A stretch of 64,000 bases of DNA from a virus. The stretch is from IMG/VR virus record IMGVR_UViG_3300035113_000077, positions 34,651-98,650 of that record. One strand, given 5' to 3'. This document shows positions 1 through 28,890 of this stretch, one piece after another. The notes beneath the pieces are model-generated. The model had not been told where the DNA came from and searched no databases. It worked only from the letters and a program-made list of their open reading frames with translations. Positions within the stretch are counted from its first letter, which is position 1. Every line of letters begins with the position of its first letter. The position numbers and the translations under genes were made by a program.

Positions 1-706
1 ATGTTGCACTATCTACACTCCACCAAGGAAATTCTAGCATTGAAGAAATATAAGTGAACGCGAACCCATGACAGTTAACTTTGTATTCTTCAGCAATTCT
101 AAATATCTTTTCAAAGAACTTTCTTTTAGGTAGAAATCCACGTCTCTTAGCTGGATAGGCGCCGATGCATATGAGTTTGTATCCTTCGTCGCAGTATCTT
201 TTGAAAAAATCTAAACTCATATCTCCATGATACACAGGTGCTGGTCTAATTCCTTTTTTCTCTAGGTACTTTTGCATATCCCAAATTATATCGCAATCTT
301 TTTTATAATCAAAATTGCAGTAGACATCCCAATGTTTACTATCGCTCTTTACAAAATCTATATACTGCTTTACTGTCTTATTCTTCTGTTCTTCGAATTC
401 TTGTTCTGTCAGAATCTTTTTATTTGCTGATAGTTTACCACCTTGCTTTCTTACAAACTGATAGAATGAGAATGCAGAACTATCCATAAATATTCCAACA
501 TTCTTAGCTATAGCTGCATCATACATTTCTCTTATTTTCTCTTGATAGTAAAATGCACCCGGGCAGACATATGCAAAATTTAAGCAACGATATTTTGTTC
601 CAGACCGTTTTATCCAGTCTAGCTCAAATTCGTAGTTCCGATTTTTATGTTCCTTGAGTACAGCACGAAATCCACTCAAGTACATTCTAGGCAATTTAAT
701 TTTCAT
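1..706 (-). CDS. dpdA: DpdA/TGT-like DNA 7-deazaguanine transglycosylase (3'-truncated by window edge; absent from ORF track)
   Basis: Manual translation from ATG at 706 (ATGA overlap with the upstream stop) is open to position 1: MKIKLPRMYLSG...IFMDSSAFS...PAPVYHG...LICIG...CHGFA...FPWWSVDSAT. These match the TGT/DpdA DSG[AG]F, PVxH, HGxG and SxDS motifs. QueC/D/E lie in the same window. Confidence 0.8.
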   Translation of the reverse strand, partial: MKIKLPRMYLSGFRAVLKEHKNRNYEFELDWIKRSGTKYRCLNFAYVCPGAFYYQEKIREMYDAAIAKNVGIFMDSSAFSFYQFVRKQGGKLSANKKILTEQEFEEQKNKTVKQYIDFVKSDSKHWDVYCNFDYKKDCDIIWDMQKYLEKKGIRPAPVYHGDMSLDFFKRYCDEGYKLICIGAYPAKRRGFLPKRKFFEKIFRIAEEYKVNCHGFAFTYISSMLEFPWWSVDSAT

Positions 707-13052: not shown

Positions 13053-14546
13053 TTATTTTATGATTTGTTTAAGTTTCCGTTCTGCCTTTTCGTATAGGTG
13101 TTTTGACCAGTGTTTATTATGCAGGTAATCATTAGGTATTCTGATGATTGGGATTCCTACTTGCTTGAACGTTTTTCTACGTTGTTCAGCTGCTTCTTCA
13201 AATCGATTATATTTGTCCGCGATGTCGAAATAAATAAGTCCTTTTTTCTTCTTATGCCTACGAACACCGCGCCCAAATTTTTGGATTGCATCCTCTTGAC
13301 TTTTCTTAGCCGCACCATCAATTACAACATCTAGTCTACTGATGTCAATGCCTTTCTTAAAAACGGTGTTTGCTATGATGAGCTTACACTCTCCAGCATT
13401 CATATCTTGAGCAGCTTCGAATCTTTCTTTGGCATGAATTTTTCCATAGGCAAGTTGATGCGGAAAGTGCTTAAGTCTACGAGATAAGTCTTCTAAATGA
13501 GAAACTCTTTCCACTAATAGTACAATATGCTTTTTACGTTTGATTCCTTCTTTAATAAGTCTATAAATAATTTCATTTCTTTTATCGCAATCTACAATTA
13601 GTTCATTATAATCCCTCTGATACTGTTTTAGTCTAGCCCAACGACCCATTCTTCCTCTACGTTTTTCTTTCTGATGATTGTGATTTACTTGAACTACTAC
13701 TCCAAAATCAAGAACTCCCTCTTCTTGACCTCTCTTCAGTGGATAAGAATACACAACTGGCCCACACAATGAATATGCTTTCATCCTAATGTGCTTTTTC
13801 TTTATAGCTAAAGTGGCAGTCAATCCAAATATGCAAGGAGCTTTAATTGCAGCGGTTGTTCTAAACGCTCTTTTGTTCATTGCAAGATGCACTTCATCTA
13901 CAATGATAACACTAAGAGTTTTTGTCCATTTTCTAAATTCTTTGTTGTTACGATACTTATCCATTGTCTGGATAGTAGCTACAGTTATTCTTCTTGGCTT
14001 AAACTTGGAATTGCCAACTATTCCAATCTTTTCACCTAACGTGGCTGCCAACGATGCTCTTGTCTGTTTTAATAGCGTTAGTTCATCTACTATAAATACT
14101 CCACTTCCTTCTAGCCATGAGAAAAACATTCCAGCTATTCTTGTCTTGCCTGTCCCGGTCGCATTTAAGACGAGACCACCCCCTTGCTCTGAAGTCTCCA
14201 ACATGGATTTCAAGCAATCGTTTTGAAATAGCCATTTTTTCTCCTTAGAAGTTTCTCCAGTTCTATTAAAGAACACTGGATCCAAGTCTGTTTCAACTTT
14301 AAATTTTATCTTTGTCTTTTTAGTTAGGTCTTCATGGATAGCACGAAAAAGACCTGCTGGAATTGAATCGTCTCTCTCATCCAGCAGGTTAACGTAACCG
14401 TCCCAATCAGTGTACCTATAAGCAGGAGTGAATTGATAGTTTTTTGGTCTGAAGCGAAGTAGTGGTTTTAGTAGCTTACGTTTTCTTTTACTAAGACTTA
14501 AATAGGATACACGATTGTTTAATAGGACGTCGCAAGTTCTTCCCAT
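13053..14546 (-). CDS. SF2 DNA helicase (UvsW/ResIII-like)
   Basis: ATGTGKT, DEVH, GLTAT, GIDI, QKFGRGVR. Confidence 0.92.
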   Translation of the reverse strand: MGRTCDVLLNNRVSYLSLSKRKRKLLKPLLRFRPKNYQFTPAYRYTDWDGYVNLLDERDDSIPAGLFRAIHEDLTKKTKIKFKVETDLDPVFFNRTGETSKEKKWLFQNDCLKSMLETSEQGGGLVLNATGTGKTRIAGMFFSWLEGSGVFIVDELTLLKQTRASLAATLGEKIGIVGNSKFKPRRITVATIQTMDKYRNNKEFRKWTKTLSVIIVDEVHLAMNKRAFRTTAAIKAPCIFGLTATLAIKKKHIRMKAYSLCGPVVYSYPLKRGQEEGVLDFGVVVQVNHNHQKEKRRGRMGRWARLKQYQRDYNELIVDCDKRNEIIYRLIKEGIKRKKHIVLLVERVSHLEDLSRRLKHFPHQLAYGKIHAKERFEAAQDMNAGECKLIIANTVFKKGIDISRLDVVIDGAAKKSQEDAIQKFGRGVRRHKKKKGLIYFDIADKYNRFEEAAEQRRKTFKQVGIPIIRIPNDYLHNKHWSKHLYEKAERKLKQIIK

Positions 14547-14571: not shown

Positions 14572-14958
14572 TTATCTTTCAGGATGAAGAAACGAATGTC
14601 CTTTTCCTATTAATTTTGTAATTACATCCACTATCGTATCTGTTGGATTTAGCTTACAATAAACATCTAGTGAATCATAGTGACTTTGATGTTTTCCTTT
14701 ATTCTTTTTTGCTAAATGATTCTTCAATGTAATATTTTCCGATAATGATGGGTGCATTGCCACAGTATCATGGTCACCTAGTAATTGATTGAAAGCATAA
14801 TCTTCCAATTCAATCGTTCCAAAAATAACATTATTATCTATTCTAATCCAATTCACTCTAGAAATTCCTTCCAGTTTTCCTAGAATAGATTTCTGAGATT
14901 CATGGTGAGGGTCTTCATGACCTGTTAATGATTCCGAAAAATATCTTAGTCTAATCAT
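14572..14958 (-). CDS. hypothetical protein coupled to the tail gene
   Basis: ATGA overlap with the tail protein stop. Confidence 0.55.
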   Translation of the reverse strand: MIRLRYFSESLTGHEDPHHESQKSILGKLEGISRVNWIRIDNNVIFGTIELEDYAFNQLLGDHDTVAMHPSLSENITLKNHLAKKNKGKHQSHYDSLDVYCKLNPTDTIVDVITKLIGKGHSFLHPER

Positions 14959-17900
14959 TGCTTTGGCAAAACTCCATTGTGCGTTAATATACTTCCTGCA
15001 AACAATGTATGAATTGGCAACACTACTAGCTTAACTACTTTCTTAAATCCAAGATTTTCTACCGATTTAACATTTGATAGATTACCATCAATTGTAAACA
15101 ACTGTAAATCGCCAGTTAAATTCCAAGGGAGTATATAGCCAATAAATTTATTATCTTTCCAAATAGGTATCTCAGTGTAAATTGAGCAACTACCTTTTGA
15201 CCCATCTTCCAATTCAATCTTTACACAACGTTCTTGTCCAAAAACAATTGAATCTATTGTACTATGATGAATTGATCTATCTTCAGGATTCGCACCCTTT
15301 ATAAAGTGCTTCATAGTTACATCAGATCCAAGTATTTCTCCTTCTGATGTATGTAATATTTCATCAACTGGAATACATTTACTTCCACCACCAGTTCCAC
15401 CACCACTTGAAGGTGGACCAGCAGCTGGTGCTGCTGGAACATTAAATGTTAATGCAATTGTCGTTCCACCTAAAGCAATAAATCCATCAGTCTGACAAGC
15501 AATAGCATCGTTTGAACTAGCTGTTGTATGAGCTTCATTTACAAATTCTACAAGTGTTCCAGGTATTCTAGCTTTAACTCTTGGATAAAATAAATAGGGG
15601 GTTACTCCACCTTGTGACGATGTCAAAATTGTTCCAGTATCTAATGTACCACTAAGTATCGTTTGAAAAAATAAATCTGGAAAAGCTAAAATAAATGTAG
15701 GCCATGTAATTACTATTCTACCTGTAGCTATTCCCCCAGGCGATACTGCTGTAGCTGTATACGTAAATAATGGAGTAACTTGATTATCAAACGATGGTGG
15801 AATACTTCCCTGTCCACCAATAAATGATGAAGCAATTAAGTTTCCATAGGGAATGTATAGAATTGGGCTCCAAGGTCCATCACTAAAGAAATCAGTTCTT
15901 TTCGACCTAGCAAAGAAAGAATTTCCACTACCAATAATTGGAGCATGTACATTAAATGTCGGTGGCTGAGCCGAACCAGTTACACTAATAGCCCCTGTTG
16001 ATAAGAAATTTCCATCTGTTGAAATCTGTAACTGTGTTCTACGAATATCTCCTCGATTTAATTGATCTAAAAATAATACTAAAGCATTTGACAGTTTTTC
16101 TCCTAGTGTCATATTAGGAGCAGGTGGACTAGAAATTGGCACAATCGTTGCTTGACTGTAAGCCCACATTAAATTGAAGAAATACAAATAGAATAATCGC
16201 AAGACATTACCATTTCCTAGGTATAGTGTCGCAGCATTACCATATTCTAGCTGAGCACCCCACACATATAAAACTTGAGCACCTACAGCAATAGTAAATC
16301 TTGATCCAATGTATATTCTTAACTTACCACTAGGATTCGAGCCAAATGCACCAGAAAATGAAAATCTTTGCCATTGGTTTGTAACAGTTATTAGCTGATC
16401 AATAATATTAGTAGTCTGTGGTGAATCTTGAACTACTAATTCAGTTGTTATATTGGCTCCAGATGTTTTCAACCAAACTGATACTGTAAAAGTTTTATTA
16501 GCTATTAATGGAGCTATTAATGATTGCTGAACTCCTGAATCTGCATTTGTTCCTTTAGGAGCTAAGTTTATTTGATCAGCAGTTAAAAATCCATTTGGAT
16601 CAAGAGTAGCATCTGGTGAAACAGTTGTTAAATAATTTACCTTAATTAAACTAACTGCTAAATAGAATACTGGTAAATCGCTTGGGAAAGTTATTGATCT
16701 AACTTTCTTTGTTGGATCTAAAGCATATTGATAATGATAGACATTTACTGCACCACCTAATGTGGTTGCAGCTTGAGTAGAATGAGCCATTGCCTTTGCT
16801 AATAGCTCATTTGCATTTCCACTAAACAATGTCCAAGCACTATATATTTGTGAAAATGTTGTCTGCGTTCCATCAACATAAGTTACTGTAATTAAGTCAG
16901 TTGTTGTTGGAGCTGCTCCTCCAAGTATTCTTAGTGAGTTATAATAATCTGGAACTACAGGAACAACTTGTCCTGTACCATACATTATATTCTGAGGTGG
17001 AAAACCACCAGCAGCAAAGCTAGATAATTTTGTTGATGGAGCAGCAACGCCTACTCCAAATATTCCAGGACTACCAGAAGAAATAGGAGTTGCATCTATA
17101 GCAGTAAGAACAACTACTCCATTTGTAATTCCAATAATTACATTTCCTTTTATTTCTATTTGCATCACGTCATTTAGTACAACTGGCCTATTAGTTGATG
17201 CAAATAGAATACCTGCTCCATTAACTATTCTAACAATATAAGTATTAGTTGTATCTCCATAATAAAAATAGCCATTTATTGATCCTAAAGGCCCACTTGC
17301 TCTAACACCTACACCCATATTGTTTGTATTTGTAGGAGCCACAGCAATTGTAGCTTGAGCAAATTGATCTGCTGGATAAGACTGATCTGTTCTTATTGCC
17401 AAAGCATGTGAATCAGCAGCTAGTGCTGTAACTGATACTTGTCCTCCTGCTACTGCAAATGTAGCCTCTACTACTGTCCAGTTTGCAGATAAAGCCCCAC
17501 CAGCAAATGCATCAGTAATAAAATTACTAGGTTGTGGTCCAAAAGCAAAAGATACTCCAGCAAAATTCAAAGATGTTCCCAATAAATTTGCAGAATAAGC
17601 TGCTGTTTGTAGTCCAGCACCAACTGGATTTCCTTGTAATGAATTATTAAAAGTTATTCCATCTTGAACTATTCCCTGAAAATTATACGGTAATGACAAA
17701 GCTACAGCACCACCAGTTACTGATGGGCCAGAAGACGTAGTCCAAAAATCAGTATTATCAAATTCTTCTGTTGCTTGGATATAATTTTTAACATTATAGT
17801 TATTTACATTAACATCATAGGTACTTGGTGATGTTCCAACTTCCAGTTGTGCTCCCCATGCAAATATTGCCTGTGCTCCAATTGCCTGTCCAAATGGTGA

Positions 17901-20900
17901 TCTTATCCAAACTCTAACTGAATTATTTGTTCCCGACCCCATTGTTCCACTAATAGAAAATCTTTTCCAAGTACTAGTAACTGTTTGTAATGCAGAAAAT
18001 CCACTTGTAAATGGTGAATCTTCAACAACCATTTCTATTGTTGCCGTACCCCCAGATGTTCTTAGCCAAGTAGAAAATGTAAATGAAGTTCCAGCAACTG
18101 GTAAAGGTTGACTTAGGTCTAAGCTAGGAATATTTACTACTTGAGATAATCCATCTAGTGTGTTTATTACTTTTCCGGGTATCTGTAATAAATCAGCATT
18201 TGTTGCTAAATTATTTGGATCTAGTGCTGCATTAGCTGAAACACTTACACTACCAAAATTTGCCCAAACAGGATTATCAAATTCTTCAGTAGACAATAAC
18301 AAATTAGGAGATACCCAAAACTGATTAGCTTTTAGTTTGATTAAATCCAGCTCCATATCTGTAGGAGTAGAAACTGGTTGTTGCGTTAGAATAGTTGCAT
18401 TATCTGGGCCCCTTAGTTCTATTCCATAAATATTTCTTATGTCTCCATTGAAAAATCCTTTTATTCTAGATGAGTCAGCATATAAAAGTTGTGGTGAAGC
18501 TGGAGTAATTGGAGCATAGACTCTAAGTACTTTTGATCTACGAGAAATTAATCCACCAACATTTAGATTTCTATTTGTAAAAGTTCCCTGTAGTAATCTA
18601 AAGTACCAAGTTCCATCAAATCTAGTTCTAGGTAATGTAAATGTTCTAGTTTGAAATAAGCCCAAACGATCATTATTTGATATTCCCCAGCCAAAATTTG
18701 TTTGCCTTGCTTCTATAAATTGTCCTGCCGTTGGAATAAAGCCAGCATCAATATAAATATTAGAACTATCAAGTCCTAAGCTAGGTACTGGGCCACCTGA
18801 TAATGATACTAAATCTAGATCAGTAGTAAAAGCAGAGCCAACATTAGCTAATTGAATAGGAGTTGGCTGAACAGCTGTATCTTTTGGCATCAAAACCCCT
18901 TCAGGCTTTGGTACAAATGTTGCCAAAAGATTTTCTAGAAATTGAGTTGGTCCATAATTTAATGTTATATTAGCTTGCTCGGACATTAGTTCAATATACG
19001 AAATTGTTACTGAACTAACCATTACTTTAAGATTATTTATATTTCTTTTTGGAGCATTGATCGTAAAGAATAATCCAGGCCTTGGATAATCTTTATTTAC
19101 AAAGTCAAAGAAAATATCTCTAATTGGCCCATATGAACCCTGATAGATAGTATTCGTTCTATCTAGTAAAACAGCTTTTCCTGCTAGCTCACATTCTTCA
19201 CTAGATCTAGGTAATGGCTTAAAATCGGTCATAATTGTCATTCTATGACCATCATCACCTACAACAGAAGCTTCTTTTGCTATAGAAGTTGAATCTTGAA
19301 CCCTAGCTATAGCAGTTTTTGATTCCCAAGATTGCAAGCGTATTCGTGATCCTACTCCTGGTATCGAGTCACTATAGAATTGTAAAACACTACCAGTTCC
19401 ATCCGATGCTGAACCACCACCTCCTGATTGGCTATTTCCAATAGTAGCTATTTGTCGACCTAAGCCAAATCCTAATTCGTAGTCAAATAGACTTCCAACA
19501 TTATTTGGTAATAGTGGTAATAACCCACCTGATACACCTGATATTCCTGCAGCAGACAAACTAGCTTGTGGTGGATCAAAAATTTGTGTCCATTGAATGG
19601 TTAAATTAGCATTTTTAACATTATATAAAACGTATAAAGCAAACGCAGGAACGTTTTGATCTCTTAGTGTAAATCTAGTATCTGTAATTGGTGGCTGAAC
19701 GTTAACGAAACCAGGCTGCAACGGATTAGTGTTATTTAGATTTATATCTGATATTACCCATGTTATATCAGCTGTTGCACTATTTGTTCCACCAGAAATT
19801 ATAGCGCCGGTAAAACTCTTAAACGTAGAAGTGTATCTGTTAACAGATTGTCCATTAACAATTGTTCTAAGTATATAATAGTGATTCTGTTGAGTAATTA
19901 CTGGTGTTCCTACTAATTGACCTAATCTACGTGGTTGTATTTGTAAGCCAGACGTACCACTTACTGAACTAGCAACAGTAAATCCAGAAGCGGGTCTAAT
20001 ATCAAATCCAAACTCACATTGTCCAGAGCCATTTACTTCAGCAAAGGTATTTGCGTTATCATATACTCCACCGATTATTGCTCCAGAACAATTTCCAACA
20101 AAGAATATTTCTCCATGCTCCAGAACGATTTTTCTTCCTAAGTCTAATCCTGTTCTTAGATACTGATAGGTTTCTCCAAAATTATTGGTTCCTCCATTTA
20201 TATTCAAAGCACCTACAAGAGAAACAGAGTTTACTGGATCTTGTATCACCCATTTACTAGTGTCAACTGATCCAGATGACCAATCTTCTTTTAGTAATAG
20301 ATCAGTATCTGTTTGGAATCCAACATATCTAAGTGGAAAGTTTGTCTGAAAGCCATCTCCTACAAAGTAATCTTCATGGTTATCTGAAGCTTCAGCATCA
20401 CCAAGAACAAAGACATCATTCACCAGTGGAGTATCGAAAATAGTTGTCTTTAGTAAGGTAGGATCAAAAGTTTTCTGATTCTGAGTTTCATCATAAGTAA
20501 TAGGAAAAGCTTGATCTCCCCACGGCTTATAATATAAAACTTTATTTAGTATCTTTACTCTATATCTAAATTGATCAGCTAATTCTTTTGCCATTGCGAT
20601 CCAATTTTTATTTGGATCATATTCCATATAAGGAACTAAGTCACCGGAAGCAGTTTGAGAAGTAACATCGAAGTATCCTGGTGCTAGTACATTAGCTAAA
20701 TAGCCCAAGATTTGACCTGCACCCATATTTACAAATGGTGGCAAAATTGGAACAGCTTTTTGTCCTAATAAATACTCATCTCCTGTAGCTTGAATTAAAA
20801 ATCTATAGGTCTGAAAATTCATACTAGGAGTAGTAGAATTTAATCCAACAAAATCTTTTGGAATATCATTAGCTATAAAACCAGTAAACACATAGCGATT

Positions 20901-21494
20901 ATACTGATTACTAAAAACTTGAATATAAGCTTCTCTACTAGGAATAATGAATGTATCATCGTTATTGGTTAGGCTAAACTGACACTGAGCAGGCTGATTT
21001 AACTTATCTGTAATTGTTAATGAGCCATTATTTACATATTGGGTGTAATCAATCGTTCTATTTTGACTCTGAGTTACTATTACAGTTGCCCCACTAAAAC
21101 TATTCCAGTTTGTTTGAAACGTTGTATCTGTTGAAATAATCAAATTCGTAGTTGGAGCTTGTGGTGTATACTGAACTGGATTCCAAACAATAACATCAAT
21201 TGGATCGCCTGCTGCTTGTGTTTGAAATATAAATTGAAATGATGCTGCACCATTTCCTTTTGATTGTAATCTTATTGGTACAAACTTTGTTCCTGGTTGA
21301 ATTGTTATCGAACCACCAAGATTATCTAAAATAATTACTGGTTTTGTTCCTTGGTTCTTAATCCAACAAGTAGTTACATATGTCTGACCATTAACAGATG
21401 GAATTACAGTAGAATGAAAATACTTAGTTACATTTGACCCACCTGAACTTTGTATTCTAGTGGAGTCTTTATTTGTAATTAATACTTGTAGCAT
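14955..21494 (-). CDS. large tail tip / receptor-binding protein with CBM- and lectin-like domains and a C-terminal Hint domain
   Basis: Follows the tape measure; beta-rich; two N..TEEFDN..W...WGAQLExG repeats; ends CIPVDE...ILTHNGVLPKQ. Confidence 0.85.
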   Translation of the reverse strand: MLQVLITNKDSTRIQSSGGSNVTKYFHSTVIPSVNGQTYVTTCWIKNQGTKPVIILDNLGGSITIQPGTKFVPIRLQSKGNGAASFQFIFQTQAAGDPIDVIVWNPVQYTPQAPTTNLIISTDTTFQTNWNSFSGATVIVTQSQNRTIDYTQYVNNGSLTITDKLNQPAQCQFSLTNNDDTFIIPSREAYIQVFSNQYNRYVFTGFIANDIPKDFVGLNSTTPSMNFQTYRFLIQATGDEYLLGQKAVPILPPFVNMGAGQILGYLANVLAPGYFDVTSQTASGDLVPYMEYDPNKNWIAMAKELADQFRYRVKILNKVLYYKPWGDQAFPITYDETQNQKTFDPTLLKTTIFDTPLVNDVFVLGDAEASDNHEDYFVGDGFQTNFPLRYVGFQTDTDLLLKEDWSSGSVDTSKWVIQDPVNSVSLVGALNINGGTNNFGETYQYLRTGLDLGRKIVLEHGEIFFVGNCSGAIIGGVYDNANTFAEVNGSGQCEFGFDIRPASGFTVASSVSGTSGLQIQPRRLGQLVGTPVITQQNHYYILRTIVNGQSVNRYTSTFKSFTGAIISGGTNSATADITWVISDINLNNTNPLQPGFVNVQPPITDTRFTLRDQNVPAFALYVLYNVKNANLTIQWTQIFDPPQASLSAAGISGVSGGLLPLLPNNVGSLFDYELGFGLGRQIATIGNSQSGGGGSASDGTGSVLQFYSDSIPGVGSRIRLQSWESKTAIARVQDSTSIAKEASVVGDDGHRMTIMTDFKPLPRSSEECELAGKAVLLDRTNTIYQGSYGPIRDIFFDFVNKDYPRPGLFFTINAPKRNINNLKVMVSSVTISYIELMSEQANITLNYGPTQFLENLLATFVPKPEGVLMPKDTAVQPTPIQLANVGSAFTTDLDLVSLSGGPVPSLGLDSSNIYIDAGFIPTAGQFIEARQTNFGWGISNNDRLGLFQTRTFTLPRTRFDGTWYFRLLQGTFTNRNLNVGGLISRRSKVLRVYAPITPASPQLLYADSSRIKGFFNGDIRNIYGIELRGPDNATILTQQPVSTPTDMELDLIKLKANQFWVSPNLLLSTEEFDNPVWANFGSVSVSANAALDPNNLATNADLLQIPGKVINTLDGLSQVVNIPSLDLSQPLPVAGTSFTFSTWLRTSGGTATIEMVVEDSPFTSGFSALQTVTSTWKRFSISGTMGSGTNNSVRVWIRSPFGQAIGAQAIFAWGAQLEVGTSPSTYDVNVNNYNVKNYIQATEEFDNTDFWTTSSGPSVTGGAVALSLPYNFQGIVQDGITFNNSLQGNPVGAGLQTAAYSANLLGTSLNFAGVSFAFGPQPSNFITDAFAGGALSANWTVVEATFAVAGGQVSVTALAADSHALAIRTDQSYPADQFAQATIAVAPTNTNNMGVGVRASGPLGSINGYFYYGDTTNTYIVRIVNGAGILFASTNRPVVLNDVMQIEIKGNVIIGITNGVVVLTAIDATPISSGSPGIFGVGVAAPSTKLSSFAAGGFPPQNIMYGTGQVVPVVPDYYNSLRILGGAAPTTTDLITVTYVDGTQTTFSQIYSAWTLFSGNANELLAKAMAHSTQAATTLGGAVNVYHYQYALDPTKKVRSITFPSDLPVFYLAVSLIKVNYLTTVSPDATLDPNGFLTADQINLAPKGTNADSGVQQSLIAPLIANKTFTVSVWLKTSGANITTELVVQDSPQTTNIIDQLITVTNQWQRFSFSGAFGSNPSGKLRIYIGSRFTIAVGAQVLYVWGAQLEYGNAATLYLGNGNVLRLFYLYFFNLMWAYSQATIVPISSPPAPNMTLGEKLSNALVLFLDQLNRGDIRRTQLQISTDGNFLSTGAISVTGSAQPPTFNVHAPIIGSGNSFFARSKRTDFFSDGPWSPILYIPYGNLIASSFIGGQGSIPPSFDNQVTPLFTYTATAVSPGGIATGRIVITWPTFILAFPDLFFQTILSGTLDTGTILTSSQGGVTPYLFYPRVKARIPGTLVEFVNEAHTTASSNDAIACQTDGFIALGGTTIALTFNVPAAPAAGPPSSGGGTGGGSKCIPVDEILHTSEGEILGSDVTMKHFIKGANPEDRSIHHSTIDSIVFGQERCVKIELEDGSKGSCSIYTEIPIWKDNKFIGYILPWNLTGDLQLFTIDGNLSNVKSVENLGFKKVVKLVVLPIHTLFAGSILTHNGVLPKQ

Positions 21495-21502
21495 TTATTT
21501 TC

Positions 21503-24500
21503 CTATGAGTACAAGTAGCCTGCTGCCCCGCCAAATCCCCCACGTGCGCGATTGGCTCTAATATTATTTAACCAATCTTCAATGCTACCACCCATACCAC
21601 CATTACCTAATGGTGCTGGTGATGCCATAGCAGAATTAAGCCCTAGAGCAGCTAATATCTGATCCATATTTGTTAATGGAGTTCCAGATTGCAACATTTT
21701 AACTATCTGAACTAGTGCCTCTATTCTAAGTATTTCTTTGTCCGTTTGTGCTTCTTGGAGTTTTAATAACTGAGCTTCTAAATCAATTCTAGTTGTTGCC
21801 AGGTCAAATATTTGTTTTTCACTATTTACTTTGTAAGTAGTCAATGCAATGTCTTGATCCATTTGTTGAAGCTGAATATTCATCTGATTTCTTGCCTGTT
21901 GAATCTGTTGCATTTTTGTCATTGCTACTGTTCTTTGATTAACTAAAACTCCCTGAGTCATAATGTCATATTCAGTTTGAGCTTCATCTGTTAACAACTG
22001 CTTTCTATCTCTAAGTAAATCATTCAGTTTTATTGCATCTTGAATTGCCCCTTGTTCTGCTTCATTCAATGCAGTTGCCTGAGTGTCAGCAAAGTTTCTA
22101 AGACTATCAGCTAAGAACTGATTTGCCATAGCTAAGTCTTTAGCATCTCTTGCAGCTCCAGCAAATTTCTTATACTGATCCATTATATCTTTTAAGCTAC
22201 CTAACAAGCCTTGGAATTGAGTCGGAGAATTTAAAACTTTTAATTGAAGCCCAAGATCAATAAACATGGCTTCCTGTTGACGTTGTAAAGCAATAATTTG
22301 ATCATTGATAGCTTGAGCTTCTTGTTCTAATTGTGCTTTTTGTTTTTTCTTACTATGTCCTTCTTGCGAAATAACACTTTGACGTAAACTTTGTAGTTGT
22401 TGTATTCCTTGCTGAATTCCAGTTGTACCATTTGAAATAGCAGCTTGCAAATCAGCCATTTGTTTATTAACACTATTTATAAATTGAGCAGTCTGATTAT
22501 TCTTATGTCCAATAATTCCACTTAGTATTCCACCAAAAGCCGCGCCTGCAACTTGTCCGATTGGGCCAGCAAATTTGCTAAACTTACTAAACATATCTCC
22601 AATATCTCCACCAATTCCCATTCCTCCTATTGCACCACCAGCAATATCTCCGGCTTTACCATGACTAGATCCAATCATTTGAATAAAGCTTCCAACAGCT
22701 CCAACAGCCCCTTTTATTCCTTCATTAAATTTTTGCATTGAATCAGACATATCATGCCAATCAAATCCTTTGAAGGCATCTGCCAAATCAGAGAAAGCAC
22801 CACCATCTTTATCTTGGGCTGATCGTTTTGCGCGAGCGCTACCTAATTGTTCTAATATCCCACCAGCAGCTCCAACACTTGCCCATCCACCGCGAGTCAC
22901 TCCAAATTGGCCGATTAAAGAACTTAGTTGCTGAAAAATACTTCCAACATTTACCATTACGCTCTTTGACTTAAGCAATTCAATATTCATCTTCATTAAT
23001 TCTTGAGTTGCTTTAGTCATATTTCCAAGAATTTGAAACCAAAGATTAGATAAGGGCATTGTACTATGAAGTAAAGCTTGCTGTTCTTCTTTATATCTTT
23101 TTGTTGCTTCAATTTGCATTTGAACAGCATTATTGGATAATGCTACGCCACTACCACCTGACATCATTTGGGCAATAGCTTGTTGTCCCTGAAACAGCCC
23201 CATTGATCCCTGATAACGACTTTCTGAAAAACTTAATCTTGTCTGAGTTTCATTTCTTAATAGGTCAGTTAATTCTCTCTCACTTTTTATTCTAGCTTCA
23301 ATTCTTTTGTTTTCTAATTGTACTAAAGCCTCAGGTGTCTTTTTTCCATTATTATATTCTTCTTGAGCTGCAATATTTGATAGCTCTACTTCATGTTTTA
23401 TTTGAGCTTCTCGTATTGCCATGTATTCGTCGACGCTAACTGTTCTTTGCTTCAATTGATAGTCTAATAATGACTTATCGTTGGTTAGAATCTCCTGTTG
23501 CATTTTCAAATTTTCAGCAATACGCAGCTGATTCGCTTTTATCTCTGAAGTTACTCCTTGAAGATCTAGTTGCTGATTTTCTTTTGCGAATTTTTCGTTC
23601 TCAGCTAATATCTTTTCTTTAGTTTGTACATTAATTATTTTTACTTTCTCAGCAGTCTGCTGATTCAATAATTTAATTTTATCTTGTTGTTCAGCAGCAA
23701 ATGAAGCTTTATCTCCACCCTCTTCTGGTTCCTCACCACCCAGCTGAGTTATCTGTTGCCTTGCAGCTTCTTGTACTTTTTGTATTTCTAACTTCTTATA
23801 TTCTGTTAAATACTTTAGCTTAGTTTCATGATCTTGCTTATCTAGTTCTCTACTTTGATTAAGAAACGATTCTTGTGTTATTAACCCCTGATCATAAGCA
23901 ATTGTTAGAGCAGATTTCTTTGTTGCAATTGCAGCTTCTTCTTGTTTCTCTTTTAATTGTGCAACAACTTCATTATATTTAATTGTCAGTTCAGTTACTT
24001 TAGCAATACTTTTAGTATTATCTTGTAAGCGTTTATCAAGACCGCTTGTAGCAGTTTCAGCTTTTTTCAGAGCATCAGGAAATTTTTGAGCAAATAGCTC
24101 AATCAAATCATTAGTTGGTTTACCTTCGCTTTGTAGCTCTAAATAAATATCCTTCCAAGTATTATTTTTACCAAAAGTCATTCTCGAAGCTTTTTGTTTT
24201 CCATATCTTTTTTCAGCTAAAGTTCTTTGAAGATCTTCAGGAACTTTTTCTTCCATATGACTTCGAGCATCTGTACTAAATTTCAGTTGTGGTTTTCCTG
24301 CCATCATTCCTTTAGCTCGTGCCCATGCTTCCACTTCATTTCCAAAATCTTTTACTGCATTAACTCCAGCTAGTTGATTCCAACCTTCTGCAATTTTATT
24401 TACCCAACTAGCTACTTGAACTAATAGGGGTAATATTCCTTCTCCTAGAGTAAATTGCAATTGGTCAAATTGCATCTTTAGTGCAGCAGTTTCGACATTC

Positions 24501-25498
24501 CATTGATGTTGCGATTTTATAAGGTCTTCATTAACTAAAACACTATACTTATCAGCTCTATCATATAGTTCTTGAATTGCTCCACTACCTTGATTTAATA
24601 GTGGAATCATCTGATAGCCAATTCTACGTGAGAATAAATCAGCAGCTAATCTACTCTTTGTCATTCCATCCGGTAAAGTTTGAAATAAATCAGATACTCG
24701 TTTTAATATATCATTAGCTGGAAGTATATTGCCATGAGCATCTCTTAAACTAACTCCAAAAGCTTTTAATTCTTTTTCAGCTTTACTTATTCCTTGTCCC
24801 CCTCTAGAGAGTTGAAGATTCATCAACATCATAGAGCGACCCATTGTTTGAATATCTATACCAGTCGCAGCTGCTGCTAGTTTTAATTCTTGAAATTGCT
24901 TAGTAGTTACTCCAGCTCTTGAAGCAGATCGTTCTAGTTCTTCTGCCATTTTGCCAGCTTTTTCTGGCATTTCACTAATTGTCTTTACTATTTCTCCTAA
25001 TGAAGATGCTAGTTTCTCAAATATTAAAAATGCTCCTCCACCAGCTGCTCCTGCAATGATAGTGTTTAACATTCCACCACCAGTAGCAGCTCCAGAAAAA
25101 CTAGCTAATAGTTTACTAAATCCTCCACCACCTCCTGCATCTGCTTTGTCTAATGATAACTGTTTTTCTTTCAAAGAAATTAACTGTTGCTGTAGCCTTA
25201 TTTCATTTGACTTCGTTGTAAGTCTTTTTATCTGTGAAGCAGCTAAAGATTTTTCGTAGTTTGTTTCTGCTTCTGCTGCTCTTTGTTTTGCTTTTATTAA
25301 GTTAATCTGAACTGCAGTTTGTTCTTTGGTTAATCTAATTGCTTCATCATGTTGCTTCTTTGCTTCAGATGCAGACTTACTTCTTTCGCTACTAAGCATA
25401 TTACTAAGTTTTTTAACAGTGCTTTCTACACCCTTAGCATTTTCAGTAAGAGCGGATAAATCACCTTTAAACTTCAGTAATAATGTTCTAGCATCCAT
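21503..25498 (-). CDS. tail tape measure protein
   Basis: 1331 aa, helical, Ala/Gln/Lys-rich, Gly-rich hydrophobic patches; after the chaperone pair. Confidence 0.92.
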   Translation of the reverse strand: MDARTLLLKFKGDLSALTENAKGVESTVKKLSNMLSSERSKSASEAKKQHDEAIRLTKEQTAVQINLIKAKQRAAEAETNYEKSLAASQIKRLTTKSNEIRLQQQLISLKEKQLSLDKADAGGGGGFSKLLASFSGAATGGGMLNTIIAGAAGGGAFLIFEKLASSLGEIVKTISEMPEKAGKMAEELERSASRAGVTTKQFQELKLAAAATGIDIQTMGRSMMLMNLQLSRGGQGISKAEKELKAFGVSLRDAHGNILPANDILKRVSDLFQTLPDGMTKSRLAADLFSRRIGYQMIPLLNQGSGAIQELYDRADKYSVLVNEDLIKSQHQWNVETAALKMQFDQLQFTLGEGILPLLVQVASWVNKIAEGWNQLAGVNAVKDFGNEVEAWARAKGMMAGKPQLKFSTDARSHMEEKVPEDLQRTLAEKRYGKQKASRMTFGKNNTWKDIYLELQSEGKPTNDLIELFAQKFPDALKKAETATSGLDKRLQDNTKSIAKVTELTIKYNEVVAQLKEKQEEAAIATKKSALTIAYDQGLITQESFLNQSRELDKQDHETKLKYLTEYKKLEIQKVQEAARQQITQLGGEEPEEGGDKASFAAEQQDKIKLLNQQTAEKVKIINVQTKEKILAENEKFAKENQQLDLQGVTSEIKANQLRIAENLKMQQEILTNDKSLLDYQLKQRTVSVDEYMAIREAQIKHEVELSNIAAQEEYNNGKKTPEALVQLENKRIEARIKSERELTDLLRNETQTRLSFSESRYQGSMGLFQGQQAIAQMMSGGSGVALSNNAVQMQIEATKRYKEEQQALLHSTMPLSNLWFQILGNMTKATQELMKMNIELLKSKSVMVNVGSIFQQLSSLIGQFGVTRGGWASVGAAGGILEQLGSARAKRSAQDKDGGAFSDLADAFKGFDWHDMSDSMQKFNEGIKGAVGAVGSFIQMIGSSHGKAGDIAGGAIGGMGIGGDIGDMFSKFSKFAGPIGQVAGAAFGGILSGIIGHKNNQTAQFINSVNKQMADLQAAISNGTTGIQQGIQQLQSLRQSVISQEGHSKKKQKAQLEQEAQAINDQIIALQRQQEAMFIDLGLQLKVLNSPTQFQGLLGSLKDIMDQYKKFAGAARDAKDLAMANQFLADSLRNFADTQATALNEAEQGAIQDAIKLNDLLRDRKQLLTDEAQTEYDIMTQGVLVNQRTVAMTKMQQIQQARNQMNIQLQQMDQDIALTTYKVNSEKQIFDLATTRIDLEAQLLKLQEAQTDKEILRIEALVQIVKMLQSGTPLTNMDQILAALGLNSAMASPAPLGNGGMGGSIEDWLNNIRANRARGGFGGAAGYLYS

Positions 25499-27823: not shown

Positions 27824-28348
27824 TCAGCTAGTAATTACATCAGCAAACTCTCCAACAGTTACTTGACATGCTCCATAAATTATTCCTTCTTGCTTTTCAA
27901 ATCTAGTTGGCATAAATCGTGGTCTACTCCACCAAATACTATCTTGTGGTTGAACAGTTGGTACAGCCACTAATTTATTTCCTTGAACTTGGGGAGTGTA
28001 AACATTCTTATCACAAAAGTAAGGATATAAACCATTTATTAACTCAGACTTCATTTGATAATTAGATTGGTACCTACTTCCACGATTGTTTCCTACTTGA
28101 TCTTGTGGTAAATCTGCTCCTTCAATTGTCCAAACCCACTGAGTTAAATGAGAGAATCCAATTGATGTCGCTGTTCCAGATGTTGGCATTTCTCCCAACA
28201 ACAAAAGATAGAATGCTTCAGCTTGAACATTCTTCGGTGGCCAAGCATTTGCTTCAATCACTCCCATAACTGTACGTTTAGGATTTTTAGCTACAATTCT
28301 AGCTTTGACAAATTTAAAATAGCTATCGACGGCGTCTCTAATGTTCAT
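27824..28348 (-). CDS. putative tail terminator / completion protein
   Basis: Synteny immediately before the tail tube; size. Confidence 0.55.
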   Translation of the reverse strand: MNIRDAVDSYFKFVKARIVAKNPKRTVMGVIEANAWPPKNVQAEAFYLLLLGEMPTSGTATSIGFSHLTQWVWTIEGADLPQDQVGNNRGSRYQSNYQMKSELINGLYPYFCDKNVYTPQVQGNKLVAVPTVQPQDSIWWSRPRFMPTRFEKQEGIIYGACQVTVGEFADVITS

Positions 28349-28890
28349 ATAATTCGTCTGTCAAAGATAGCTTTCAATTTCAAATAACGATCAGGGCCAA
28401 CAAATTCTATCAATCGTTCTGTCCAAGATAATTTATCTTTGAATCTAAATAATAATTTACCTTCTTTACAGTAAAGATTAAAATTACCTTGACTACAGCT
28501 CTCACAGTGCTGAACATGAGTTTGCCAAGATTCTGGAAGTTTCATCAACGATGGCATAAATGACCACACTTCCAGCCAGTCAGAATCTACTTCCATGTCT
28601 CTAAATGTATCACATTTCCAAGTAAGAGTTATTCCAAAGCAATCGCGAGGCTTAAATATTACTTTCTGTAGCTGAGCCTCCATGAAATTTGTTCTATATA
28701 AACTAGTTCCAGTAAAATTCGATCCATAGCAATTAGCATTGGAAAAATTTGAATAGGAACAATCAGCATCTGTAAAATTACATTCTAATAATGAGCATCG
28801 ACTAAAATCTGAAAACTTCAACTTTTGCTTTGAGAAATCTTTTTGATAAAACTTCTGACCCGAGAATTTTGCACCATCTTGTTTTGTCAT
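28345..28890 (-). CDS. pentapeptide-repeat protein
   Basis: About 15 consecutive pentads (AKFSG QKFYQ KDFSK ... CNFTD ... SNFSN ... TNFME). Confidence 0.85.
   Translation of the reverse strand: MTKQDGAKFSGQKFYQKDFSKQKLKFSDFSRCSLLECNFTDADCSYSNFSNANCYGSNFTGTSLYRTNFMEAQLQKVIFKPRDCFGITLTWKCDTFRDMEVDSDWLEVWSFMPSLMKLPESWQTHVQHCESCSQGNFNLYCKEGKLLFRFKDKLSWTERLIEFVGPDRYLKLKAIFDRRII

What the first reader, a model, noticed from the sequence alone, without database searches (positions are those of the whole stretch)
14955..15430. Tail protein ends in a Hint (intein-like) domain that cannot splice canonically
Seen: a flexible linker PPSSGGGTGGGSK, then a 134-aa domain from Cys (15377) to ...HTLFAGSILTHN (14976), followed only by GVLPKQ-stop. 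Known: Hint domains start with C/S and end HN, and splicing needs a +1 C/S/T. Here +1 is Gly, and the block-B His and block-F Asp appear substituted (SCSIYTE; VVKL). Inference: a BIL-like autoprocessing module. It may self-release like an intramolecular chaperone, or form a thioester that ligates the tail tip to another protein or a host-surface nucleophile.
Basis: partly seen in the sequence, partly recalled or inferred. Interest (0 to 1): 0.75.

Follow-up and report, generated by a model that had tools for sequence, protein, structure and literature searches.

The report
Self-processing Hint domain capping tail-tip protein
The 2179-residue tail-tip protein of this uncultured soil phage ends in a genuine intein/Hedgehog-type (Hint) domain that keeps its cutting residues but has lost two residues thought essential, so it probably cuts itself off the fibre by an unusual route that I found described in no paper.

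Summary
ORF 14955..21494(-), directly after the tape-measure gene, ends in the linker PPSSGGGTGGGSK, a 134-aa domain (Cys 15377 to Asn 14976), then GVLPKQ and the stop.

The domain is a true Hint fold:
- A profile of its own subfamily alone hits the gp41-1 intein at E 5e-8.
- The AF2 model (pLDDT 93) matches inteins, BIL domains and Hedgehog at Z 19 (rmsd 1.7 Å).
- Cys and Asn fall exactly on the first and last catalytic positions.

In all 11 known relatives (24-96% identity), Cys1, His-Asn and a Lys at +5 of the tail are invariant. The +1 residue is never C/S/T. The block-B His is replaced by an invariant Thr, and the block-F Asp mostly by Lys/Arg. A variant strain in other soil samples shows at least 20 synonymous against 6 non-synonymous codon changes, so the domain is under purifying selection.

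The best reading is a type-A-BIL-like self-processing module on the fibre tip. Its chemistry, including activity without the block-B His, is untested.

Sister groups with canonical block B cap the same tip domain and Flavobacterium tail-fibre-cluster proteins.

The scan noted C-terminal Hint caps on other phages' tail proteins before (e1-3507311, e1-3282460). I found no paper on them.

The parts
14955..21494 (-). Gene for the 2179-aa tail-tip / host-recognition protein (P0001)
   Evidence: A single ORF lying directly downstream of the tape-measure gene. It carries CBM_4_9 and three copies of the NF048003 spike-fibre domain. Homologs of 1469-2520 aa share the same architecture.
15417..16022 (-). 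'Tip' domain preceding the linker (about residues 1825-2026). It always occurs together with a terminal Hint.
   Evidence: It aligns with the N-terminal parts of the short proteins P0008, P0010 and P0013 and of P0016/17. All 5 long homologs found with this region also end in the Hint. The boundaries are approximate.
15378..15416 (-). Gly-rich flexible linker PPSSGGGTGGGSK. Lys2039 is the -1 residue.
   Evidence: A Gly-rich run precedes the Cys in every complete relative and in both sister groups.
14976..15377 (-). Hint-fold domain, Cys2040 to Asn2173 (134 aa)
   Evidence: AF2 gives pLDDT 93.4 and pTM 0.87. Foldseek finds inteins, BIL and Hedgehog at probability 1.00 and TM up to 0.85. VIA-align Z is 19.5, with model 3..136 mapping to intein residues 1..last. 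The subfamily profile hits gp41-1 at 5e-8.
15375..15377 (-). Cys1 codon (block A nucleophile)
   Evidence: Invariant in all 10 complete relatives. TGT changes to TGC synonymously in the variant strain.
15174..15185 (-). Block B: S-I-Y-T in place of T-x-x-H (Ser2104, Thr2107)
   Evidence: S67 and T70 are invariant in 11/11 sequences, with no His nearby. HMMER aligns them to S-E-E-H of gp41-1. hhalign aligns them to T-P-T-H of the canonical sister groups. MAFFT gives an alternative register (His to Pro73), which also lacks a His.
15030..15032 (-). Block F position 4: Lys2155 where class 1 inteins have Asp
   Evidence: By alignment to gp41-1 and by spacing from the terminal Asn. The position is K, K, K, M, K, R, P, R, R, R, R in the 11 members.
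14976..14981 (-). Block G: His2172-Asn2173, the site of Asn cyclisation in inteins and type A BILs
   Evidence: Invariant in 11/11 sequences. The His codon changes synonymously in the variant strain.
14958..14975 (-). Six-residue tail GVLPKQ. +1 is Gly. Lys2178 (14961..14963) is invariant in the subfamily.
   Evidence: Four consecutive tail codons (G, V, L, P) differ synonymously in the variant strain with no amino-acid change. pLDDT is below 50 for the last four residues.
21503..25498 (-). Tape-measure protein gene (context)
   Evidence: Hits to PHROG tape-measure families down to E 1.7e-22.

Best explanation
The last 140 residues of the tail-tip protein are a functional Hint-superfamily domain of the type-A bacterial-intein-like (BIL) kind. 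It is tethered by a flexible Gly-rich linker to the distal 'tip' domain of the fibre.

Inferred mechanism:
1. Cys2040 attacks the Lys2039-Cys2040 peptide bond (N-S acyl shift) and forms a thioester.
2. His2172-Asn2173 cyclise and cut the Asn2173-Gly2174 bond.
3. With no Cys, Ser or Thr at +1, no branched intermediate can form. The thioester is therefore resolved by water or by an amine.

The net result is removal of the Hint domain from the mature fibre, which would then end at ...GGGSK. The released hexapeptide may or may not be ligated back on through its free alpha-amine, the type A BIL route.

Functionally it would act as a single-use maturation or assembly device, analogous to, but unrelated to, the self-cleaving S74 chaperone domains of other fibres.

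The subfamily has replaced the block-B His (by an invariant Thr) and the block-F Asp (mostly by Lys/Arg), so step 1 must be activated differently from standard inteins.

Shown: the fold, the residue pattern, co-occurrence with the tip domain, and purifying selection. Inferred: all of the chemistry and its timing.
For: Fold:
- AF2 pLDDT 93.4.
- Foldseek top hits are all inteins, BIL or Hedgehog.
- Z is 19.5/19.4 at rmsd 1.7 Å over 133 residues, and model 3..136 maps to Mtu RecA intein 1..440, so Cys and Asn sit on the catalytic termini.

Sequence homology without help from canonical members:
- The A2 profile hits gp41-1 intein at 5e-8.
- hhalign against the canonical terminal-Hint groups gives probability 97%, E 2e-11.

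Conservation:
- Only 11 of 142 columns are invariant across 24-96% identity, and they include Cys1, His135 and Asn136.
- +1 is G, G, P, N, G, D, N, L, L, N, N.

Selection:
- The variant strain shows 20 synonymous against 6 non-synonymous codon changes in Hint plus tail, including synonymous changes in the Cys1, His135 and four tail codons.

Architecture:
- The domain is always at the extreme C-terminus behind a Gly linker, in long (1469-2520 aa) and short (314-509 aa) proteins alike.
- Every homolog found with the tip domain also has the Hint.
- The same tip domain carries a canonical Hint in P0016/17.

Published knowledge:
- A few natural inteins work without the block-B His through compensating residues (PMC6333167).
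Against: - The block-B His is the most conserved intein residue and is essential for the acyl shift in many inteins (PMC6333167). It is absent here, as is the block-F Asp, so the N-terminal reaction may be slow or lost.
- If the domain only needed to fall off, the invariant Lys in the tail and the conserved tail sequence would have no explanation.
- No Pfam, PHROG or NCBIfam Hint model recognises the domain.
- The AF2 alignment contained canonical Hint sequences, which could favour that fold. The subfamily-only profile result answers this objection.
- There is no experimental or proteomic evidence of cleavage.
Confidence: 0.55

Rival explanations
1. The Hint is a ligase rather than a self-remover. 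The thioester at Lys2039 is passed to a lysine epsilon-amine to form an isopeptide bond. The acceptor could be the invariant tail Lys2178 (giving a branched C-terminus after Asn cyclisation), a Lys on a neighbouring subunit or another virion protein (covalent cross-linking of the tip), or an amine on the host surface.
For: - A Lys at +5 (+4 in one member) is invariant in all 11 subfamily members, while the other tail residues vary.
- The tail is under purifying selection.
- Tetrahymena BIL2, a close structural match (Z 17.7; Foldseek E 6e-8), resolves its thioester onto Lys epsilon-amines to form isopeptide bonds (PMC8616854).
- The invariant Lys occurs in the group that lacks the block-B His. 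The sister groups with His have Lys at +2 or none at all.
Against: - This rests on a pure correlation across three groups.
- The tail is modelled with pLDDT below 50, so no geometry supports reach to the thioester.
- The Lys could instead be structural or catalytic.
- A thioester exposed on a long-lived virion would tend to hydrolyse.
Confidence: 0.15
2. The domain is a catalytically silent Hint fold. It is kept on the virion as the distal knob of the fibre, serving a structural or receptor-binding role, and the precursor is never cut.
For: - Loss of the block-B His and the block-F Asp, both important for the coordinated reaction in standard inteins (PMC6333167).
- Strong purifying selection is also what a binding domain would show.
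- The domain lies at the very tip, where receptor-binding domains normally sit.
Against: - The few invariant residues are exactly the catalytic Cys1 and His-Asn at the two termini, which a mere binding fold has no reason to keep across 24% identity.
- The Hint diverges faster than the adjacent tip domain: 96/70/48/45/33% identity against 97/86/64/57/54%.
- The tip domain accepts a different, canonical Hint in P0016/17. This fits an exchangeable processing cassette better than a receptor-binding site.
Confidence: 0.2
3. Only the C-terminal reaction survives. His-Asn cyclisation trims the hexapeptide, and Cys1 no longer forms a thioester, so the Hint stays attached.
For: - His135 and Asn136 are invariant.
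- The residues that assist the N-terminal step are the ones lost.
Against: - Cys1 is invariant in all complete members and sits behind a conserved flexible linker.
- Removing a 5-8 residue tail has no obvious purpose.
- The tail's own conservation argues that it matters beyond being discarded.
Confidence: 0.08

Closest known systems
Type A bacterial intein-like (BIL) domains (Amitai 2003; Dassa 2004, as cited in PMC4031507; solved example Clostridium thermocellum BIL, PDB 2LWY)
   Same: - Hint fold (Z 16.5, rmsd 2.2 Å over 131 residues; combined-profile E 1.4e-5).
- N-terminal Cys, C-terminal His-Asn and no +1 nucleophile.
- Located in variable surface or extracellular proteins rather than conserved enzymes.
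   Different: - The block-B His is replaced by an invariant Thr, and the block-F Asp by Lys/Arg.
- It sits at the extreme C-terminus with only a 5-8 residue tail bearing an invariant Lys.
- The host protein is a phage tail-tip fibre.
- It is no closer in sequence or structure to 2LWY than to mini-inteins.
Class 1 mini-inteins, e.g. cyanophage-like gp41-1 (PDB 6QAZ/6RIZ) and Ssp DnaB (1MI8)
   Same: - Best sequence match: subfamily profile E 5e-8 over 116 of 128 residues.
- Best structural matches: Z 19.0-19.4.
- The block G sequence ILTHN is identical to that of gp41-1.
   Different: - No +1 Cys, Ser or Thr.
- No real C-extein.
- Not inserted in a conserved site of a housekeeping protein.
- Lacks the block-B His and the block-F Asp.
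Tetrahymena thermophila BIL2 of the BUBL1 locus (PDB 6Y75/6TMM)
   Same: - Hint fold (Foldseek E 6e-8; Z 17.7).
- Non-canonical resolution of the thioester. A Lys amine is the acceptor there (PMC8616854) and is a candidate acceptor here.
   Different: - BIL2 has its block-B His (H69) and is flanked by ubiquitin-like domains.
- Here the C-terminal flank is six residues, and no acceptor has been shown.
Hedgehog/Hog C-terminal autoprocessing domain (PDB 1AT0)
   Same: - The top structural match (Z 19.5).
- A C-terminal Hint that releases the N-terminal functional part through a thioester.
   Different: [quoted passage not shown]
- From my own knowledge, not checked here: it lacks the terminal His-Asn and is followed by a sterol-recognition region.
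- Here His-Asn is invariant and only six residues follow.
Peptidase S74 intramolecular chaperone domains of phage fibres and tailspikes
   Same: A self-cleaving C-terminal module of phage fibres. The role is analogous. Fibres ending in it sit beside the Flavobacterium Hint genes.
   Different: The fold and chemistry are unrelated. There is no S74 match in this protein.
Sister terminal-Hint groups found here: the P0016/17 type, and Flavobacterium DUF5977-Gly-Hint proteins (L002-L007)
   Same: - The same layout: domain, Gly linker, Cys...HN, then a 4-9 residue tail without a nucleophile.
- The same tip domain in P0016/17.
- A tail-fibre gene neighbourhood for the DUF5977 group.
- hhalign probability 97%.
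   Different: They keep the canonical block B T-P-T-H, and their tails lack the +5 Lys.

Membership tests
Hint (Hedgehog/intein) superfamily | Hint beta-fold | tested here: met
   pLDDT 93.4. Foldseek probability 1.00 and TM up to 0.85. Z 19.5 at rmsd 1.7 Å over 133 residues.
Hint (Hedgehog/intein) superfamily | Nucleophile (Cys/Ser) as the first residue (block A) | tested here: met
   Cys2040 aligns with intein residue 1. It is invariant in the 10 complete relatives.
Hint (Hedgehog/intein) superfamily | Block B T-x-x-H with the conserved His | tested here: not met
   The Ser/Thr position is kept (S67), but the His is replaced by an invariant Thr70. There is no His in the region in 11/11 members. 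The register is uncertain by up to 3 residues, but no register supplies a His.
Class 1 intein | Cys, Ser or Thr at +1 of the C-extein | tested here: not met
   +1 is Gly here. It is G/P/N/D/L in the relatives, V in P0016/17 and Y in the Flavobacterium group.
Class 1 intein | Inserted inside a host protein, with a functional C-extein restored by splicing | tested here: not met
   Only six residues follow the domain, then TGA. Reading through the stop adds two codons before TAA.
Class 1 intein | Block F Asp (F:4) | tested here: not met
   Lys2155 here. The position is K/R in 9 of 11 members, with M and P in the other two.
Type A BIL domain | C-terminal His-Asn (intein-like block G) | tested here: met
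   H135 and N136 are invariant. Definition from PMC4031507.
Type A BIL domain | Lacks the +1 nucleophile | tested here: met
   Definition from PMC4031507 and PMC7664689.
Type A BIL domain | Specific sequence kinship with described BIL-A domains rather than with inteins | tested here: inconclusive
   2LWY is matched (E 1.4e-5 with the combined profile; Z 16.5), but more weakly than gp41-1 or DnaB inteins. It is not listed with the subfamily-only profile at E<=1.
Type A BIL domain | Autocatalytic cleavage or splicing activity | not testable with these tools
   Needs expression and mass spectrometry. Only conservation and purifying selection support it.
Hedgehog/Hog autoprocessing domain | The Hint is followed by an adduct (sterol) recognition region and has no terminal His-Asn | tested here: not met
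   His-Asn is present and only a 6-aa tail follows. The defining feature is stated from my own knowledge of the family.
Pretoxin Hint (PT-HINT) of polymorphic toxins | The Hint precedes a C-terminal toxin domain, and the protein matches PF07591 | tested here: not met
   No domain follows the Hint. There is no PF07591 hit at E<=10.
Peptidase S74 intramolecular chaperone | Match to PF13884 / S74 fold | tested here: not met
   No Pfam hit. The fold is Hint.

The most novel reading that the evidence does not exclude
This His-less Hint uses the invariant lysine of its own short tail, or a lysine on a neighbouring subunit or on the host surface, as the acceptor for the thioester at the fibre's end. 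That would create an isopeptide bond. It would be a phage tail tip that uses intein chemistry for covalent cross-linking or covalent attachment, by analogy with the Lys-directed BIL2 of Tetrahymena.
Probability: 0.12. Interest if true: 0.85.

Novelty: new variant of a known kind. Interest (0 to 1): 0.6.

Why it matters
Hint domains are the chemistry behind inteins, Hedgehog maturation and expressed-protein ligation. A natural Hint at the business end of a phage tail fibre would be a second, unrelated solution to fibre maturation, beside the S74 chaperone domains.

This subfamily is conserved and under selection although it lacks the 'essential' block-B histidine. That gives a natural system for asking how the N-S acyl shift can be activated otherwise. 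The invariant tail lysine gives a concrete, testable candidate for isopeptide formation.

If the thioester is used for ligation rather than release, it would be a new way for a virion to build or anchor its host-recognition apparatus. It would also be a compact new tool for protein ligation.

Tried and rejected
Searches and tools that gave nothing:
- Pfam, PHROGs and NCBIfam do not recognise the domain.
- Single-sequence AF2 failed, with pLDDT 32.
- No nucleotide or tblastn match in 50,697 deposited phage records.
- Two IMG/VR scans found no relative.
- The genome and metagenome contig scans found only the canonical Flavobacterium-type group.
- Homolog searches recovered few members: 11 representatives at 50% clustering, plus P0015-P0017.
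- No Hint-less homolog of the tip domain turned up. These searches are word-limited, so absence is weak evidence.
- No other intein was detected in the 98.65-kb record with PF14890.
- The atlas look-up of the N-terminal region gave only weak leads (scores <=0.80) to Tal/baseplate-hub families.
- Literature searches for Hint or intein-like domains on tail fibres found nothing relevant.
- Run X3 laid no contig.

Readings rejected:
- A canonical or split intein, because all four blocks are present, there is no +1 nucleophile and there is no C-extein.
- A pretoxin Hint, because nothing follows the domain.
- Stop-codon read-through, because it adds only two codons.
- A sortase-like LPxTG reading of 'LPKQ/LPKT', because it occurs in only 5 close members, has no Gly and has no anchor.
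- P0012 as a family member, because its best matched stretch lies in its repeats and not in its Hint.

Not possible or not run:
- No complex prediction was run.
Full report
**What is there.**
The window is part of a 98.65-kb IMG/VR virus record, with all genes on the minus strand. ORF 14955..21494(-) encodes 2179 residues. It lies directly downstream of a 1331-aa tape-measure protein (PHROG tape-measure families, E 1.7e-22) and further downstream of the portal gene. It carries a CBM_4_9 domain and three copies of the NF048003 'spike fibre' domain. So it is the tail-tip / host-recognition protein.

The stop overlaps the ATG of a 128-aa ORF (ATGA). Read-through would add only two codons.

**Is it a Hint domain?**
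Curated libraries miss it. A single-sequence search of PDB sequences gives only a weak hint, gp41-1 intein at E 0.18.

An exhaustive search of 1.84 billion representatives found 11 proteins. In nine of them the match lies at the very C-terminus, in proteins of 138 to 2520 residues. The other two, P0012 and P0014, match through repeats and are not members. Two further word-indexed searches added P0015 (70% identical) and P0016/17.

- A profile built from the window's own subfamily alone (A2) hits the gp41-1 intein at E 5e-8 over 116 of its 128 residues.
- With sister groups added (A3), the hits are gp41-1 at 1e-11, DnaX mini-intein at 4e-6, the C. thermocellum BIL (2LWY) at 1.4e-5 and Tetrahymena BIL2 at 6.5e-4.
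- Single-sequence AF2 failed (pLDDT 32). With the 19-row alignment, AF2 gives pLDDT 93.4 and pTM 0.87.
- Foldseek finds 60 PDB chains at E<1e-3, and every listed hit is an intein, BIL or Hedgehog Hint structure.
- VIA-align gives Z 19.5 (Hedgehog 1AT0), 19.4 (Ssp DnaB; rmsd 1.7 Å over 133 residues), 17.7 (BIL2) and 16.5 (2LWY).
- Model residues 3..136 map onto intein residues 1..last, e.g. Mtu RecA 1..440.

The Cys and the Asn are therefore at the two catalytic termini. The fold claim is settled. The possible bias from canonical rows in the AF2 alignment is answered by the subfamily-only profile result.

**Catalytic inventory.**
Eleven subfamily members at 24-96% identity were compared.

- Only 11 of 142 columns are invariant: C3 (in all 10 complete sequences), D60, S67, T70, G112, P123, F128, L133, H135, N136 and K141.
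- +1 is G, G, P, N, G, D, N, L, L, N, N, never a nucleophile.
- Block B: HMMER aligns S67-x-x-T70 with S-E-E-H of gp41-1. hhalign aligns it with T-P-T-H of the canonical sister groups. Spacing from the conserved D-G turn and the model's strand boundaries agree.
- MAFFT offers another register, T70 on Thr and Pro73 on His. No register supplies a His, and none occurs at a conserved place in the region in any member.
- Block F position 4 (Asp in class 1 inteins) is K/R in 9 of 11 members.
- The tail is 5-8 residues, with an invariant Lys at +5 (+4 in one member).

**Is it alive?**
A variant strain is present in other rhizosphere and soil samples. It covers the region without indels, and its translation equals P0004.

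In the Hint plus tail, 26 codons differ: 20 synonymously and 6 not. Synonymous changes occur in the codons of Cys1, Thr134, His135 and four consecutive tail residues G-V-L-P. That is strong purifying selection, which argues against a decaying relic.

The Hint nevertheless diverges faster than the adjacent tip domain: 96/70/48/45/33% identity against 97/86/64/57/54%. This is what one expects of a single-turnover processing module constrained mainly at its core and catalytic residues.

**Wider pattern.**
- The tip domain and a terminal Hint always co-occur in what could be found.
- In P0016/17 the same tip domain and Gly linker carry a different, canonical Hint: T-P-T-H, ending in VHN | VQPVS.
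- In Flavobacterium genomes and two metagenome contigs, ~290-aa DUF5977 proteins end in a Gly linker, then CLVEG...TPTH...THN | YKQ...
- Those genes lie among tail-fibre genes with Peptidase_S74 ends and phage fibre repeats.
- BFVD holds uncultured-phage proteins of 410-424 aa, labelled only 'Fibronectin type III' or 'Hint domain containing', that match the model.

A Gly-tethered terminal Hint without a +1 nucleophile is therefore a recurring cap on phage tail proteins. The window's subfamily is its His-less, Lys-tailed variant.

Earlier notes of this scan report such caps on other phages (e1-3507311, e1-3282460). I treated them as leads only. My literature searches found no description.

**Mechanism.**
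Published work defines type A BILs by the C-terminal His-Asn and the missing +1 nucleophile. They form the N-terminal thioester, cyclise Asn, and give mostly cleavage products. Ligation is possible through the freed alpha-amine (PMC4031507; PMC7664689).

The window's domain fits that definition, so self-removal from the fibre tip is the most likely outcome (0.55). What does not fit:
- The block-B His is essential in many inteins, although a few natural inteins compensate for its absence (PMC6333167).
- The conserved tail with its invariant Lys is unexplained by simple self-removal.

Tetrahymena BIL2 passes its thioester to Lys epsilon-amines (PMC8616854). This makes an isopeptide-forming reading plausible but unproven (0.15). 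A silent structural knob (0.2) is disfavoured, because the invariant residues are the catalytic ones and because the Hint is exchangeable on the same tip domain.

**Limits.**
- There is no experiment.
- The family is small.
- The host is unknown.

Noticed in passing
14572-14958 (-): A 128-aa ORF of unknown function. Its ATG overlaps the tail gene's TGA (ATGA), so it is probably translationally coupled. It has no Pfam match. It is a candidate fibre assembly factor or partner of the Hint-capped tip.
   Followed up: partly
28345-28890 (-): A pentapeptide-repeat protein (PF00805, E 2e-13) encoded inside the tail-gene module, between the head genes and the tape measure.
   Followed up: no
16220-18310 (-), within P0001: The tail protein holds three copies of the NF048003 'GTA/phage head spike fibre' domain plus a CBM_4_9 match.
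   Followed up: partly
L002:5302-6162, L003-L005, L006:7299-8162, L007:6724-7608: Flavobacterium genomes and metagenome contigs encode DUF5977-Gly linker-Hint proteins (canonical T-P-T-H, ending in THN then YKQ..). Each sits beside a paralogous Hint-less DUF5977 gene and large fibres ending in Peptidase_S74. Two different self-processing modules therefore occur in one fibre cluster.
   Followed up: partly
P0016, P0017 (459 aa, public protein clusters): The same tip domain and Gly linker as in the window, but capped by a canonical Hint with the block-B His and no tail Lys. This is evidence that Hint cassettes are exchanged on one fibre end.
   Followed up: partly
P0012 (1436 aa, public protein cluster): A repeat-rich Fn3-type protein that also ends in a canonical Hint (CFIAGT...TKNHP...VHN, then KP). 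It scores above the PF07591 cut-off. This is another terminal Hint with only two residues after it.
   Followed up: no
13053-14546 (-): A UvsW-like helicase (ResIII, Helicase_C and UvsW_N) immediately after the tail module.
   Followed up: no
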